Virus genome (UHGV): UHGV-0853290
Strand: one strand, 5' to 3'
Length of the DNA stretch: 12,700 nt
Source of the DNA: a virus
Shown: piece after piece, positions 19 through 12,634 of the stretch
How positions within the stretch are numbered: the first letter of the stretch is position 1
Layout of the letters: each line of letters opens with the position of its first letter
Translations under genes and position numbers: made by a program
Notes under the pieces: model-generated
What the model saw: only the letters and a program-made list of their open reading frames with translations
Told to the model about the DNA's origin: nothing
Database searches by the model: none

Positions 19-180
19 ATGAAAAAAGCATTTGCTGCACTGTTCGTTTTGTTGTCTCTGGTAGCTTCAACTCAGGCCTTTGCCGGTCGTTGCCAGCACG
101 ACAGCGACACTGCTGCTGACGGCTCCCGCTGCGGTGGGCGTTCTGCGGATTCCCGTCCGGGTGGCGGTGGCATTCGTTAA
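19..180 (+). CDS. small exported protein (53 aa), function unknown
   Basis: ATG 19-21 to TAA 178-180, below the ORF-track size cutoff. N-terminus MKKAFAALFVLLSLVASTQAFA looks like a Sec signal peptide; mature part is Gly/Cys-rich. Weak SD (GGAA). Confidence 0.4.
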   Translation: MKKAFAALFVLLSLVASTQAFAGRCQHDSDTAADGSRCGGRSADSRPGGGGIR

Positions 181-253: not shown

Positions 254-964
254 TCAGAAGAACCCTGCCTTGTCGTTGATGTACTCCGCGTGCGTCTGGA
301 TATCACGCAGGCATTTGCTCACACCGACGATGTAGCAGAACATGGTGGTCAGTTCCGCCGCCGCGCCCGATACGTCGTGCCCGTCTTCCTGTAACTGGTT
401 AAGCAGATTCATCAGCAGTGAGTTCTCCGTCAGGCCGAGAACACCAGACGGCGAGTGAATCAGGCTGCGGTAGCCTGGCTTCAGCGGGGCGCTGTAGGTT
501 TTGTTCTCTATCTTCATTGCCTGCAGCACTGCTGACGCCGTGGCGTTGGCTACCTGGTCGGCAACCATCTTTATACGTTCTTCCTGCGGGAGCGAGTTTT
601 TAATGTAACTTCCGGTGCGGCGGATCTGAGGAAGAACCTCACCTGTAACCCATTTACGAAAGCGGTAGGGGATAGTGCCTGGTGTCACCGCATCGCGGCA
701 GCGGAGGATCAGTGTGTAGAGGCCTGACTCGGAGATGATGTTGATCTCTTTTACTCGGCTGTCAAAAATTGCACGATGTTCATGCCCTATGTTGAACATA
801 GACCTTTCATCATCATCCAGTTTTTCAAGTGCTTGGGTGACGTTTTGGATACGCAGCGCACTACAAACGTCTTGGGCTACAAACCATGGTTGGCCATCGA
901 TAATGATGGAACGGATAGGGTTAACAGATTCAAATTTGAAGATGGCAGTTTGAGCATTAGCCAT
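254..964 (-). CDS. phage antirepressor, Bro-N N-terminal domain plus KilAC/ANT C-terminal domain
   Basis: ORF 254-979; preferred start is the ATG at 964 (MANAQTAIFKF...) preceded by GGAGAT. N-terminus matches the Bro-N pattern (PWFVAQDVCSAL, ISESGLYTLILR, KWVTGEVLPQIRRTGSY). Confidence 0.85.
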   Translation of the reverse strand: MANAQTAIFKFESVNPIRSIIIDGQPWFVAQDVCSALRIQNVTQALEKLDDDERSMFNIGHEHRAIFDSRVKEINIISESGLYTLILRCRDAVTPGTIPYRFRKWVTGEVLPQIRRTGSYIKNSLPQEERIKMVADQVANATASAVLQAMKIENKTYSAPLKPGYRSLIHSPSGVLGLTENSLLMNLLNQLQEDGHDVSGAAAELTTMFCYIVGVSKCLRDIQTHAEYINDKAGFF

Positions 965-1120
965 GGTGGTTATCTCCACTTAGTGATTTTAATCACCACC
1001 GCAACGCCAATTACTGGTGGTGAACTGGACAAGGTTGGCGTACCGGCCTAAGTGGTACCGGCGTCCTTTCGGACCCCTGCCCAGCCCACCATAATTCGGA
1101 TATAGCTGTGCTTAACGCAT

Positions 1121-1143
1121 AAAAAAACCACGTCTGGCGTGGT
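1121..1143 (-). terminator. minus-strand intrinsic terminator or attenuator upstream of the antirepressor gene
   Basis: Stem ACCACG / CGTGGT (1127-1132 / 1138-1143) with a 5-nt loop, followed on the minus strand by U7 (rc of A7 at 1121-1127). Confidence 0.4.
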
Positions 1144-1233
1144 ATGCGCCACTTAGTAACTCGGGACGCCAATCCCGGCACTGGATTTTGCCAGTGCCTG
1201 ATTACTATGGCACAAGAGGAGTGCGATGTAAAT

Positions 1234-1248
1234 TTACCTCAAAGGTAA
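1234..1248. promoter_or_regulatory. box A palindrome TTACC-N5-GGTAA (copy 1)
   Basis: TTACCtcaaaGGTAA, perfect half-sites; same motif at 2755, 5365, 12558, 12620 and near-perfect at 1359 and 7539. Confidence 0.5.
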
Positions 1249-1277
1249 TAATAAATTCATAGCTCACGTTATTTCAA

Positions 1278-2398: not shown

Positions 2399-2422
2399 GG
2401 CCGCTTTCGCGGCCTTTTCTTT
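2399..2422 (+). terminator. rho-independent terminator of the two-gene cassette
   Basis: Hairpin GGCCGCTTTCGCGGCC (2399-2414) followed by TTTTCTTT. The hairpin is the exact reverse complement of the one at 187-202. Confidence 0.7.
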
Positions 2423-2678
2423 ATGTGGTTTGTTTTCGTAATTGTTCGGCACAATAGTCGAGATGTGTTTGCAGATCCTGCATAGACATCTGCGAGCTGG
2501 TGACGTAGTTAATCAGTGCAGTCAGTTCGGCAAGTGGGCCATCGACATTAAATCCATCCTTATCGAGATCCCGGAGTAATTTCATCAAGTGCGATCCCTC
2601 CACCAGTGACCTGACGCCTCCCGGCGTGTGAATCCTTTCGGTAAATCCGTCTTCCAGTGGATAGTGATACTGCTGCAT
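2421..2678 (-). CDS. small KilAC/ANT C-terminal-domain protein (85 aa), paralog of the antirepressor C-terminus
   Basis: Start ATG at 2678 (MQQYHYPLEDG...) with GGAG 8 nt upstream. Aligns with the C-terminus of the 254-964 product (LAELT, DLQTH shared). The longer ORF-track version (to 2801) would run through the promoter and LexA box. Confidence 0.6.
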   Translation of the reverse strand: MQQYHYPLEDGFTERIHTPGGVRSLVEGSHLMKLLRDLDKDGFNVDGPLAELTALINYVTSSQMSMQDLQTHLDYCAEQLRKQTT

Positions 2679-2699
2679 CTTATCTTCTCCATGCAATAA

Positions 2700-2715
2700 C
2701 TGTATATTTATACAG
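2700..2715 (-). promoter_or_regulatory. LexA (SOS) box
   Basis: CTGTATATTTATACAG fits CTGT-N8-ACAG with an AT-rich centre; lies 22-37 nt upstream of the start codon at 2678. Confidence 0.65.
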
Positions 2716-2754
2716 TAGCAAATAATTTGTTTGCTATCCAGCACGTTTTGCAAA

Positions 2755-2769
2755 TTACCCGTAAGGTAA
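2755..2769. promoter_or_regulatory. box A palindrome TTACC-N5-GGTAA (copy 2)
   Basis: TTACCcgtaaGGTAA in the divergent intergenic region between the KilAC gene and the tailspike gene. Confidence 0.5.
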
Positions 2770-2797
2770 TATCTATTCTTATTCACATTCTTTCTAT

Positions 2798-2810
2798 CCA
2801 TATGTGGTTT
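2798..2810 (+). promoter_or_regulatory. box B CCATATGTGGTTT (copy 2)
   Basis: Lies 28 nt downstream of box A copy 2 and 64 nt upstream of the tailspike ATG. Confidence 0.45.
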
Positions 2811-5364: not shown

Positions 5365-5379
5365 TTACCTTAATGGTAA
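5365..5379. promoter_or_regulatory. box A palindrome TTACC-N5-GGTAA (copy 3)
   Basis: TTACCttaatGGTAA, 10 nt after the tailspike stop codon. Confidence 0.5.
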
Positions 5380-5409
5380 AATTTATAACGGCTAACTTAA
5401 AATTTTAAT

Positions 5410-5422
5410 CCATATATGGTTT
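5410..5422 (+). promoter_or_regulatory. box B CCATATATGGTTT (copy 3)
   Basis: Lies 30 nt downstream of box A copy 3; followed 6 nt later by the -10-like hexamer TATGAT (5429-5434). Confidence 0.45.
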
Positions 5423-7289: not shown

Positions 7290-7570
7290 TCATGGTACTG
7301 ATTTCCGGTGACGGTATATAAAACGGTACGGTAAAAATCTGTTTTTGGAAAGTTGTTACCAGTCAATTGGTTATGCTTACCGTAAATAATTGAGTGGGAA
7401 TGATTAACAGCTAACTCATAGCAACTCATTCCTATTCAGATACTAATTTAACCCTCTGTTTTTACAGAGGGTTTTTGTTTTTATGTATTCATTTCTATTC
7501 ACTCTACACCATATTTTTCTGCGGTACAGGTGACGGTATTACCTTAAAGGTATACTCTCATACCGTCATG
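7290..7570. other. attP-like region with clustered integrase arm-type repeats
   Basis: GGTGACGGTAT at 7307-7317 and again at 7529-7539; inverted copy ATACCGTCA at 7560-7568; further ACGGTA/CGGTAA units at 7323-7334 and TTACCGTAA at 7377-7385. Sits directly upstream of the integrase gene. Confidence 0.4.
7451..7482 (+). terminator. rho-independent terminator of the lysis operon
   Basis: Stem ACCCTCTG / CAGAGGGT with loop TTTTTA, followed by TTTTTGTTTTT. Confidence 0.8.
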
Positions 7571-12557: not shown

Positions 12558-12572
12558 TTACCGTCGAGGTAA
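12558..12572. promoter_or_regulatory. box A operator TTACC-N5-GGTAA overlapping the early promoter -10/+1
   Basis: TTACCgtcgaGGTAA; nested in a larger inverted repeat TTACCTCG-N12-CGAGGTAA (12545-12572). Confidence 0.5.
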
Positions 12573-12600
12573 TGATTATGCGTATCTGGTTTGATGTCAA
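12572..12600 (-). promoter_or_regulatory. sigma70-type early promoter (minus strand)
   Basis: On the minus strand: -35 TTGACA (rc of 12595-12600), 17-bp spacer, -10 AATCAT (rc of 12572-12577); about 35 nt upstream of the start at 12538. Confidence 0.45.
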
Positions 12601-12619: not shown

Positions 12620-12634
12620 TTACCCATAAGGTAA
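12620..12634. promoter_or_regulatory. box A operator TTACC-N5-GGTAA upstream of the early promoter -35
   Basis: TTACCcataaGGTAA, 19 bp upstream of the -35 hexamer. Confidence 0.5.

What the first reader, a model, noticed from the sequence alone, without database searches (positions are those of the whole stretch)
1121..1277. Possible small structured RNA or attenuated leader on the minus strand upstream of the antirepressor gene
Read on the minus strand, the region has a candidate promoter (-35 TTGAAA at rc 1272-1277, 18-bp spacer, -10 TATTAT at rc 1248-1253) whose predicted start falls inside box A (1234-1248). It is followed by an 8-bp-stem hairpin (1177-1198) and then a hairpin plus U7 terminator (1121-1143), all before the antirepressor start at 964. 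That would give a roughly 100-120 nt RNA ending at an intrinsic terminator, or an attenuated leader controlling ant read-through. No convincing ORF occupies the interval. The promoter call is weak.
Basis: inference. Interest (0 to 1): 0.4.

Follow-up and report, generated by a model that had tools for sequence, protein, structure and literature searches.

The report
IsrK leader RNA of antirepressor operon

Summary
The two hairpins and the U7 terminator are real. On the minus strand, 1197..1121 is a full-length match to Rfam isrK (67.2 bits, gathering score 50).

Both RNAs belong to the P1 immI / P4 seqA-CI / Gifsy-1 IsrK immunity module. IsrK carries boxes a1 and b1. C4 carries the complements a' and b'. 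The ant leader repeats the boxes as a2 and b2, and b2 overlaps the ant Shine-Dalgarno.

In 109 related loci the variable triplet of a1 equals that of a2 and the reverse complement of a' every time, in six versions. The b boxes covary in the same way.

The 5' end by homology is 1197. It is set by a positionally conserved promoter, TTTACA-17-TGcCATAGT (1232..1204), so the RNA is 77 nt, not 100-120.

Most likely mechanism: C4 masks the ant ribosome site, and short IsrK acts as a decoy that frees it. A conserved alternative hairpin hints that C4 also promotes termination.

This is an already known family. Interest is low.

The parts
1248..1277 (-). It may be an upstream, operator-controlled second promoter, analogous to P2c4/P51a of P1.
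   Evidence: 10 of 12 positions match. The hexamers are kept in relatives while the spacer sequences differ. The same geometry, a -10 hexamer abutting the palindrome, recurs at 12600..12558. Function is untested.
1234..1248 (.). It covers the predicted start of the upstream promoter and ends 1 nt from the -35 hexamer of PisrK.
   Evidence: There are 5 exact copies of TTACC-N5-GGTAA in the window against 0.01 expected. The palindrome is conserved upstream of IsrK in many homologues. The binding protein is not identified.
1204..1232 (-). PisrK: -35 TTTACA (1232..1227), 17-nt spacer, extended -10 TGcCATAGT (1212..1204). It predicts +1 at 1197.
   Evidence: A -10 hexamer ending 7 nt before IsrK +1, with a -35 hexamer 17 nt upstream, is kept in 101 distinct upstream contexts. 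Gifsy-1 numbering confirms that +1 equals Rfam model position 1.
1121..1197 (-). IsrK small RNA, 77 nt. It is also the 5' leader of the read-through C4-ant transcript.
   Evidence: Rfam RF01394, 67.2 bits against a gathering score of 50, model positions 1-77. It also matches RF03163 (c4-a1b1) at 42.8 bits, below the gathering score of 46.7.
1178..1197 (-). IsrK hairpin 1: a 7-bp stem with loop GCAAAAUC.
   Evidence: In covariation, 5 of 7 pairs change on both sides and 99.8% of cells are paired.
1162..1177 (-). IsrK hairpin 2, which presents box a1 (AUUGGCGU, 1173..1166) in its loop.
   Evidence: D5, I3. The a1 triplet equals the a2 triplet and the reverse complement of the a' triplet in 109 of 109 loci.
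1149..1157 (-). Box b1 (ACUAAGUGG), in the single-stranded linker of IsrK.
   Evidence: I8. Cognate b1:b' duplexes average -12.6 kcal/mol against -6.5 for non-cognate pairs, with 0 of 2000 permutations as low.
1135..1151 (-). Alternative hairpin UGGCG(1151..1147)/CGCCA(1139..1135). It overlaps the 3' end of b1 and the 5' arm and loop of the terminator, so it is a candidate antiterminator.
   Evidence: Its energy is -28.7 against -29.7 kcal/mol for the terminator fold, and it is the minimum-energy fold of the nascent 64-66 nt. It covaries among homologues. In 71 of 72 homologues the nascent fold scored z below 0, mean z -1.56. P1 has the equivalent UGCGG/CCGCA by inspection of the sequence. Function is inferred.
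1121..1143 (-). Intrinsic terminator of IsrK: stem ACCACG/CGUGGU, loop CCAGA, then a U7 run.
   Evidence: A hairpin plus U tract is present in 72 of 73 distinct homologues.
1013..1096 (-). C4-type antisense RNA. It has a long tRNA-acceptor-like closing stem followed by ACCA, and two internal hairpins.
   Evidence: Rfam RF01695, 66 bits against a gathering score of 45, model positions 1-87. Fold.
1048..1055 (-). Box b' (CCACUUAG), in the loop of the second C4 hairpin.
   Evidence: I6, I8.
1035..1041 (-). Box a' (ACGCCAA), in the single-stranded junction of C4.
   Evidence: I2, I3. The homologous Gifsy-1 residues C159 and C162 were shown by compensatory mutation to pair with IsrK G31 and G28 (PMC4825925; mapped).
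1004..1011 (-). Box a2 (AUUGGCGU) in the ant leader. It is an exact repeat of a1.
   Evidence: D5.
974..984 (-). Box b2 (ACUAAGUGG, 984..976), overlapping the ant Shine-Dalgarno GGAG (977..974).
   Evidence: D1, I6. Cognate b2:b' duplexes average -16.9 kcal/mol against -10.1 for non-cognate pairs, with 0 of 2000 permutations as low. In most homologues b2 sits directly on the Shine-Dalgarno.
254..964 (-). ant, an antirepressor with a Bro-N domain. It is the regulated gene.
   Evidence: Pfam Bro-N, E-value 1.1e-19. PHROG 130 'anti-repressor Ant', E-value 4.7e-57.

Best explanation
The interval encodes IsrK. IsrK is the a1/b1-bearing leader RNA of a P1-immI-type anti-immunity operon in a phiV10-like (Uetakevirus) E. 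coli prophage.

Proposed sequence of events:
1. Transcription starts at 1197 from PisrK.
2. Most transcripts stop at the intrinsic terminator (1143..1121) and give the 77-nt IsrK.
3. Some transcripts read through into the C4-type RNA (1096..1013) and ant.
4. C4 acts either within the read-through transcript or after processing. It pairs its a' and b' boxes with a2 and b2 in the ant leader. This covers the first two bases of the Shine-Dalgarno and keeps the antirepressor untranslated.
5. Short IsrK carries the same a and b boxes. It therefore acts as a decoy that binds C4, which frees the ant ribosome site and allows Ant synthesis and prophage induction.
6. C4 pairing with a1/b1 on the nascent leader probably also removes a small antiterminator hairpin and so favours termination. 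That would make a feedback loop.

What is shown here: family membership, the box complementarity and its three-way covariation, promoter conservation, and the existence and covariation of the alternative hairpin.
What is shown in relatives only: the short and read-through transcripts, a1:a' pairing, and activation by IsrK in trans (Gifsy-1); translational repression through a2/b2 (P1).
What is inferred: that this copy is expressed, that it works as a decoy, and that C4 promotes termination.
For: Family membership:
- Rfam isrK scores 67.2 bits and C4 scores 66 bits, both full length and above their gathering scores.

Boxes in the window:
- a1 equals a2 exactly (8 nt).
- b1 equals b2 (9 nt).
- Both are complementary to a' and b' of C4.

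Covariation across 109 loci:
- The variable triplet of a1 equals that of a2 and the reverse complement of a' in 109 of 109 loci, in six versions.
- Cognate b1:b' and b2:b' duplexes are about 6-7 kcal/mol better than non-cognate ones, with 0 of 2000 permutations as low.
- There are 47 b versions and 54 a/b combinations.

Comparison with known systems:
- The P1 record annotates the same order: Oc4, P51a, P51b, a1, b1, c4, a2, b2. The P1 leader also matches isrK weakly.
- Gifsy-1 has the same layout.
- The published compensatory pairs G28-C162 and G31-C159 are a1:a' pairs.
- In Gifsy-1, IsrK supplied in trans raised the anrP transcriptional fusion 8-fold and the translational fusion 139-fold.

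Promoter and structure:
- Promoter position is conserved.
- Hairpin 1 covaries.
- The alternative hairpin is supported, plus inspection of the P1 sequence.
Against: - There are no expression data for this locus.
- RF03163 (c4-a1b1) scores 42.8 bits, just under its gathering score.
- The Gifsy-1 mechanism invokes translational coupling through orf45. That ORF is not present here: the equivalent ORF has 14 codons and stops at 1050..1048. The published mechanism therefore cannot be transferred unchanged.
- In Gifsy-1, constitutive co-expression of the C4 region (STnc1160) made IsrK toxicity stronger rather than weaker. This does not fit a simple titration model.
- The alternative hairpin has only 4-6 bp, and its cognate advantage over non-cognate pairs is small (-7.8 against -7.0 kcal/mol).
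- The homologue set was gathered with a pattern inside IsrK. Conservation of the pattern positions therefore carries no information.
Confidence: 0.82

Rival explanations
1. The main transcript starts near 1241 from TTGAAA-18-TATTAT and gives an RNA of about 121 nt that ends at the same terminator, or a longer attenuated leader.
For: - The site matches 10 of 12 consensus positions.
- Its hexamers persist in relatives while the spacer sequences differ.
- Its -10 hexamer abuts an operator-like palindrome, in the same geometry as a second site at 12600..12558.
- P1 has tandem promoters P51a and P51b ahead of a1/b1.
Against: - This promoter is absent from most of the 101 upstream contexts that still keep the downstream promoter at a fixed distance from IsrK +1.
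- The Rfam model and the Gifsy-1 numbering both place +1 at the base of hairpin 1.
- It is probably an additional, repressor-controlled promoter rather than the source of IsrK.
Confidence: 0.25
2. A purely cis-acting attenuator. The hairpins and terminator only limit read-through into C4-ant, and the short product is an inert by-product with no role in trans.
For: - The terminator precedes the regulated genes.
- An alternative hairpin competes with the terminator.
- P4 and P1 relatives are described mainly through the C4/CI RNA.
Against: - In Gifsy-1, IsrK supplied in trans activates anrP, and IsrK mutants G28A and G31A lose this activity.
- a1 and b1 are displayed in a loop and a linker, as expected for a pairing RNA.
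Confidence: 0.12
3. IsrK is chiefly a trans-acting, Hfq-dependent sRNA that regulates host chromosomal mRNAs. Its position next to ant is incidental.
For: - Rfam labels the family 'Hfq binding RNA'.
- It ends in a terminator with a U tail, which is typical of Hfq sRNAs.
Against: - The variable parts of IsrK covary with the adjacent C4 and ant leader in every locus. A conserved host target would not produce this.
- The module sits in front of unrelated antirepressor genes.
Confidence: 0.05

Closest known systems
IsrK / STnc1160 / anrP locus of Salmonella prophage Gifsy-1 (Hershko-Shalev et al. 2016, PMC4825925; Rfam RF01394)
   Same: - The 77-nt, three-hairpin RNA is the same, as is the promoter spacing.
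- The order is the same: IsrK, then a C4-like RNA, then a2/b2 on the antirepressor Shine-Dalgarno.
- The a box is the same (UUGGCGU).
   Different: - The b box differs.
- There is no orf45-type upstream ORF ending on the ant start codon. Here the ORF has 14 codons. AUGA coupling occurs in only 6 of 88 distinct loci.
- The Ant protein is unrelated to AnrP.
- The genomic setting differs: a phiV10-like podovirus prophage rather than a lambdoid phage with the module next to its Q gene.
immI operon of phages P1/P7: a1, b1 - c4 RNA - a2, b2 - icd - ant1/2 (Citron and Schuster 1990, 1992, cited from my own knowledge; annotated in NC_005856; Rfam RF01695 and RF03163)
   Same: - The order of boxes is the same, and b2 lies at a ribosome-binding site.
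- The C4 fold is the same, with b' in a loop and a' in a junction.
- A promoter region with an operator lies upstream.
- The leader has two hairpins, then a hairpin followed by a U run.
   Different: - There is no icd gene here. b2 overlaps the Shine-Dalgarno of ant itself.
- The leader terminator is a stronger canonical one, so a discrete short RNA is expected.
- The operator is a TTACC-N5-GGTAA palindrome, not a C1 site.
- The Ant proteins are unrelated.
Satellite phage P4 immunity (seqA - CI RNA - seqC), and N15 CA RNA (N15 from my own knowledge)
   Same: - IsrK and C4 are recognised structural homologues of seqA and CI (PMC3632133; PMC10111431; PMC4825925).
- The antisense RNA has target copies both upstream and downstream of itself.
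   Different: - In P4 the outcome is premature transcription termination, not masking of a ribosome site.
- Whether C4 promotes termination here is only inferred, from the alternative hairpin.
P22 immI (sar antisense RNA, arc, mnt, ant)
   Same: A small RNA limits antirepressor translation.
   Different: - sar is transcribed from the opposite strand of the ant leader.
- There is no C4 fold, no a/b boxes and no sequence relationship.

Membership tests
Rfam isrK (RF01394) | Full-length covariance-model match above the curated gathering score. | tested here: met
   67.2 bits against 50, model positions 1-77, E-value 6.5e-13.
Rfam isrK (RF01394) | Hairpin 1 with a GCAAAAUC loop, hairpin 2 with a UUGG-containing loop, and a 3' intrinsic terminator. 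| tested here: met
   Hairpin 1 covaries. Hairpin 2 was fixed by the search pattern, so it is uninformative.
Rfam isrK (RF01394) | Its own sigma-70 promoter, placing +1 at the base of hairpin 1. | tested here: met
   The consensus match is at 1232..1204. Its position is conserved in 101 upstream contexts. No transcript mapping was done.
Rfam isrK (RF01394) | Expressed as a stable RNA of about 77 nt, with read-through into the antirepressor gene. | not testable with these tools
   Shown only for Gifsy-1.
Gifsy-1 IsrK dual-function mechanism | An upstream ORF (orf45) over the C4 region whose stop codon overlaps the antirepressor AUG, giving translational coupling. | tested here: not met
   The ORF from ATG 1092 has 14 codons and stops at 1050..1048. 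No ORF ends at 964.
Gifsy-1 IsrK dual-function mechanism | The middle of IsrK pairs with the downstream C4/orf45 region. | tested here: met
   a1:a' forms 7 bp and b1:b' forms 8 bp. These pairings covary. The Gifsy-1 mutational pairs map to a1:a'.
P1-type immI (C4 RNA, RF01695, plus targets) | C4 covariance-model match above the gathering score. | tested here: met
   66 bits against 45, model positions 1-87.
P1-type immI (C4 RNA, RF01695, plus targets) | a' and b' are complementary to downstream a2 and b2, with b2 at the ribosome-binding site of the regulated ORF. | tested here: met
   a2 lies at 1011..1004. b2 lies at 984..976 and overlaps GGAG at 977..974.
P1-type immI (C4 RNA, RF01695, plus targets) | An upstream a1/b1 copy (RF03163, c4-a1b1). 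| tested here: inconclusive
   The boxes are present and covary. However, the RF03163 score is 42.8, under the gathering score of 46.7.
P1-type immI (C4 RNA, RF01695, plus targets) | An icd-like ORF between b2 and ant, coupled to ant. | tested here: not met
   ant starts 9 nt after the Shine-Dalgarno that b2 overlaps, and no ORF intervenes.
P1-type immI (C4 RNA, RF01695, plus targets) | C4 is matured from a precursor by RNase P. | not testable with these tools
   Only sequence hints are available: a long acceptor-like stem followed by ACCA.
P4 seqA-CI-seqC immunity | The antisense RNA causes premature transcription termination through the upstream target. | not testable with these tools
   An alternative hairpin overlaps b1 and the terminator, is conserved and covaries. 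No functional test was possible.

The most novel reading that the evidence does not exclude
The IsrK terminator may be riboregulated. A small antiterminator hairpin (1151..1147 with 1139..1135) forms first on the nascent RNA. C4 pairing with b1 strips it away. C4 would then set the ratio of short IsrK to read-through C4-ant mRNA, while IsrK in turn neutralises C4. That would be a two-RNA feedback switch conserved from P1 to phiV10-like phages. Its specificity would be written in a combinatorial a/b code: at least 6 a versions and 47 b versions, which reassort freely.
Probability: 0.3. Interest if true: 0.45.

Novelty: already known. Interest (0 to 1): 0.15.

Why it matters
For this window it matters mainly as annotation. 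The 700 bases upstream of ant hold two unannotated regulatory RNAs. The ten best-matching RefSeq records list only the BRO-N CDS under the match. The 281-nt region matches 457 of 5426 complete E. coli genomes, and related copies occur in Stx-converting phages.

The module probably gates antirepressor-driven prophage induction.

The comparative data gathered here go a little beyond the literature:
- The three copies of each box covary perfectly.
- Upstream-ORF coupling is rare.
- A conserved alternative hairpin competes with the terminator.

Together these suggest one model that reconciles the P1 view (translational block), the P4 view (termination) and the Gifsy-1 view (activation by the short RNA).

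Tried and rejected
- The first collection scan used a pattern with one N too many, which does not match the window itself. It returned 8 loci, several of them chance hits, and these were not used in the statistics.
- RT-7 RNA on the plus strand (1190-1377) scored 19.6 bits against a gathering score of 116.8. I rejected it as chance.
- I tested translational coupling of ant to an orf45-like upstream ORF and rejected it for this locus.
- I tested homology of the window's Ant to Gifsy-1 AnrP and to P1 Ant1. Neither is significant, so the RNA module is portable and not tied to one protein family.
- The primary P1 papers (PMC312442, PMC196329, PMC523184) are not held. P1 anatomy was taken from the annotated GenBank record instead.
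- The MAFFT alignment of the IsrK 3' half is too gappy for column-wise pair counts on the terminator and the alternative hairpin. I used cognate against non-cognate duplex energies and shuffles instead.

Full report
**What is there**

The window comes from a phiV10-like (Uetakevirus) temperate phage or prophage of E. coli.
- Its genes match phiV10, EC.W1-9, ZX5 and related records at 92-95% identity.
- They include a Bro-N antirepressor, tailspike modules, a holin, an endolysin, an integrase and an MT-A70 methylase.
- The 281 bases around the finding are 100% identical to phage HEMP4.
- The same region matches 457 of 5426 complete E. coli genomes.

A scan of the whole window against Rfam gave exactly two matches above gathering score, both on the minus strand just upstream of ant:
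- isrK (RF01394) at 1197..1121, 67.2 bits against a gathering score of 50, covering model positions 1-77.
- C4 antisense RNA (RF01695) at 1096..1013, 66 bits against a gathering score of 45, covering model positions 1-87.

Confirmed:
- The 8-bp hairpin at 1177-1198 is present. It is hairpin 1 of IsrK.
- Among 79 homologues, five of its seven pairs change on both sides while 99.8% of cells stay paired. The whole tested structure beat all 500 shuffles.
- The terminator is present: stem 1143..1127 followed by U7.
- There is no credible ORF in the interval.
- The promoter-like site TTGAAA-18-TATTAT exists.

Corrected:
- A different promoter-like site fits the IsrK 5' end: TTTACA(1232..1227)-17-CATAGT(1209..1204), preceded by TG, which predicts +1 at 1197.
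- Across 101 distinct upstream sequences from related loci, many otherwise unalignable, a -10 hexamer ends 7 nt before IsrK +1 and a -35 hexamer lies 17 nt further up.
- In Gifsy-1, numbering from the Rfam model start reproduces every coordinate in the published paper. A107 is the orf45 AUG, G28 and G31 lie in IsrK, and C159 and C162 lie downstream. The homologous start in the window is therefore 1197.
- The RNA is 77 nt, not 100-120 nt.

- Its hexamers persist in close relatives whose spacers differ.
- Its -10 hexamer abuts the palindrome TTACCTCAAAGGTAA.
- The same arrangement occurs at 12600..12558.
- It may be a second, operator-controlled promoter. P1 has P51a with operator Op51 upstream of P51b.

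**Anatomy**

All elements lie on the minus strand.

| Element | Sequence | Window coordinates | Location |
|---|---|---|---|
| a1 | AUUGGCGU | 1173..1166 | loop of IsrK hairpin 2 |
| b1 | ACUAAGUGG | 1157..1149 | linker before the terminator |
| b' | CCACUUAG | 1055..1048 | hairpin loop of C4 |
| a' | ACGCCAA | 1041..1035 | unpaired junction of C4 |
| a2 | AUUGGCGU | 1011..1004 | ant leader |
| b2 | ACUAAGUGG | 984..976 | ant leader |

- b2 overlaps the ant Shine-Dalgarno GGAG (977..974), which lies 9 nt before ATG 964.
- This is the layout annotated in the P1 record: Oc4, P51a, P51b, a1, b1, c4, a2, b2, then icd-ant.
- The P1 leader itself matches c4-a1b1 (51 bits) and, weakly, isrK (35 bits), including a hairpin plus U run after b1.
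- Gifsy-1 has the same layout.

**Comparative test**

A pattern from IsrK hairpins 1 and 2 retrieved 120 viral contigs. 109 loci could be parsed.
- The three variable bases of a1 equal those of a2 and the reverse complement of those of a' in 109 of 109 loci. There are six versions: CGU, UCU, AAC, CAU, UCG and AAG.
- Cognate b1:b' duplexes average -12.6 kcal/mol against -6.5 for non-cognate pairs.
- Cognate b2:b' duplexes average -16.9 against -10.1 kcal/mol.
- None of 2000 permutations reached the cognate mean in either comparison.
- There are 47 b versions and 54 a/b combinations. The same b is found with different a versions.
- In most loci b2 lies directly on the Shine-Dalgarno of the downstream gene.
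- These gene products are not homologous across systems. The window's Ant shows no similarity to AnrP or to P1 Ant1. The RNA module is therefore a portable cassette.

**Mechanism**

Evidence from relatives:
- In P1, c4 RNA blocks translation by pairing with a2 and b2 (annotation; review text).
- In Gifsy-1, the isrK promoter makes both a short IsrK and a read-through mRNA.
- IsrK supplied in trans raises anrP transcription 8-fold and translation 139-fold.
- The compensatory pairs G28-C162 and G31-C159 were demonstrated experimentally. One search shows that these are a1:a' pairs.

The simplest reading for the window has two parts:
- C4 masks the ant ribosome site through a'/b' pairing with a2/b2.
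- Short IsrK is an a1/b1 decoy that releases it.

The orf45 coupling step of the Gifsy-1 model does not apply here:
- The equivalent ORF has 14 codons and stops inside b'.
- An AUGA junction is found in only 6 of 88 distinct loci.

The published fusion data also fit a three-site model:

| Construct | Activity |
|---|---|
| Wild type | 4 |
| a1 mutant | 93 |
| a' mutant | 484 |
| a1 + a' double mutant | 224 |

This pattern is as expected if the double mutant restores a1:a' but leaves a':a2 weakened. This is my reinterpretation, not the authors'.

**A possible extra layer**

- In IsrK, UGGCG (1151..1147) can pair with CGCCA (1139..1135). This overlaps the 3' end of b1 and the 5' arm and loop of the terminator.
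- This fold lies within 1 kcal/mol of the terminator fold and is the minimum-energy fold of the nascent 64-66 nt.
- The pairing is kept through compensatory versions: GGCGC/GCGCC, AGAGC/GCUCU, UGAGC/GCUCA, GACGC/GCGUU and AGUGC/GCACU.
- The cognate mean is better than all 5000 permutations, although the margin is small.
- In 71 of 72 homologues the nascent segment folds better than its shuffles, with mean z -1.56.
- By inspection of its sequence, P1 has UGCGG/CCGCA in the same place.
- C4 binding to b1 would dissolve this hairpin and favour termination. That is the P4-type outcome, and the Gifsy-1 authors raised it as a possibility. This step is inference only.

**Comparison with what is known**

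- The equivalence of IsrK with P4 seqA, and of C4 with P4 CI RNA, is already in the literature (PMC3632133; PMC10111431; PMC4825925).
- So is the similarity to P1, P7 and N15.
- Rfam itself holds a 'c4-a1b1' family. It overlaps IsrK in Gifsy-1 and scores 42.8 bits here.
- The finding is therefore a typical, unannotated member of a known family.
- It is not a member of the orf45-coupled Gifsy-1 subtype, nor of the icd-containing P1 subtype. In both cases the defining feature was tested and not met.

**Verdict**

The start site and length need correcting, and the partner RNA needs adding. Novelty is low, and interest is 0.15. The most novel reading still open is the riboregulated terminator with a combinatorial a/b specificity code. 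I put its probability at about 0.3.

Noticed in passing
window 1234-1248, 2755-2769, 5365-5379, 12558-12572, 12620-12634 (exact); 1359-1373, 7539-7553 (1 mismatch): The palindrome TTACC-N5-GGTAA occurs 5 times exactly, against 0.01 expected. Most copies appear to lie in or near gaps between ORFs. It looks like a dispersed operator for one phage repressor, as with C1 of P1. The copy at 1359-1373 sits just after the -10 hexamer of a plus-strand promoter (TTGCCA-18-TAGAAT, 1327-1356), ahead of the ORF at 1386.
   Followed up: partly
window about 1279-1291, 2813-2825, 5408-5420 and 12583-12595 (minus strand): A companion motif, AAACCAnATAnGG (for example AAACCACATAGGG and AAACCACATATGG), lies roughly 10-45 nt from four of the palindromes when read on the minus strand. 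In two cases it overlaps or abuts a -35-like hexamer. This may be a repeated promoter-operator cassette. The binding factor is unknown.
   Followed up: no
window 2421-2801 (minus strand): This 126-aa ORF shares the C-terminal module of the Ant protein (PHROG 450 and PHROG 15539, E-values 1.7e-47 and 2.3e-33) but lacks the Bro-N domain. It has its own palindrome and companion motif at its 5' end. It may be a second, truncated antirepressor-like gene.
   Followed up: no
related loci L011-L130: In 36 of 88 distinct loci, the ORF that starts at the AUG in the 5' end of C4 stays open for as far as the sequence was read. This suggests that in those phages the C4 RNA may lie inside a 5' extension of the antirepressor ORF, as described for P4 CI within eta. 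In the window it does not.
   Followed up: partly
window 19-180 (plus strand): A 53-aa ORF matches PHROG 14503 ('membrane associated protein', moron category) at E-value 2.3e-40 over its full length. A strong terminator-like hairpin lies at 186-203.
   Followed up: no
window 1178-1197 and 985-990: The invariant loop of IsrK hairpin 1 (GCAAAAUC) has no complement in C4 or in the leader. The hexamer AAAAUC recurs in the ant leader just before b2. The role of this conserved loop is unexplained.
   Followed up: no
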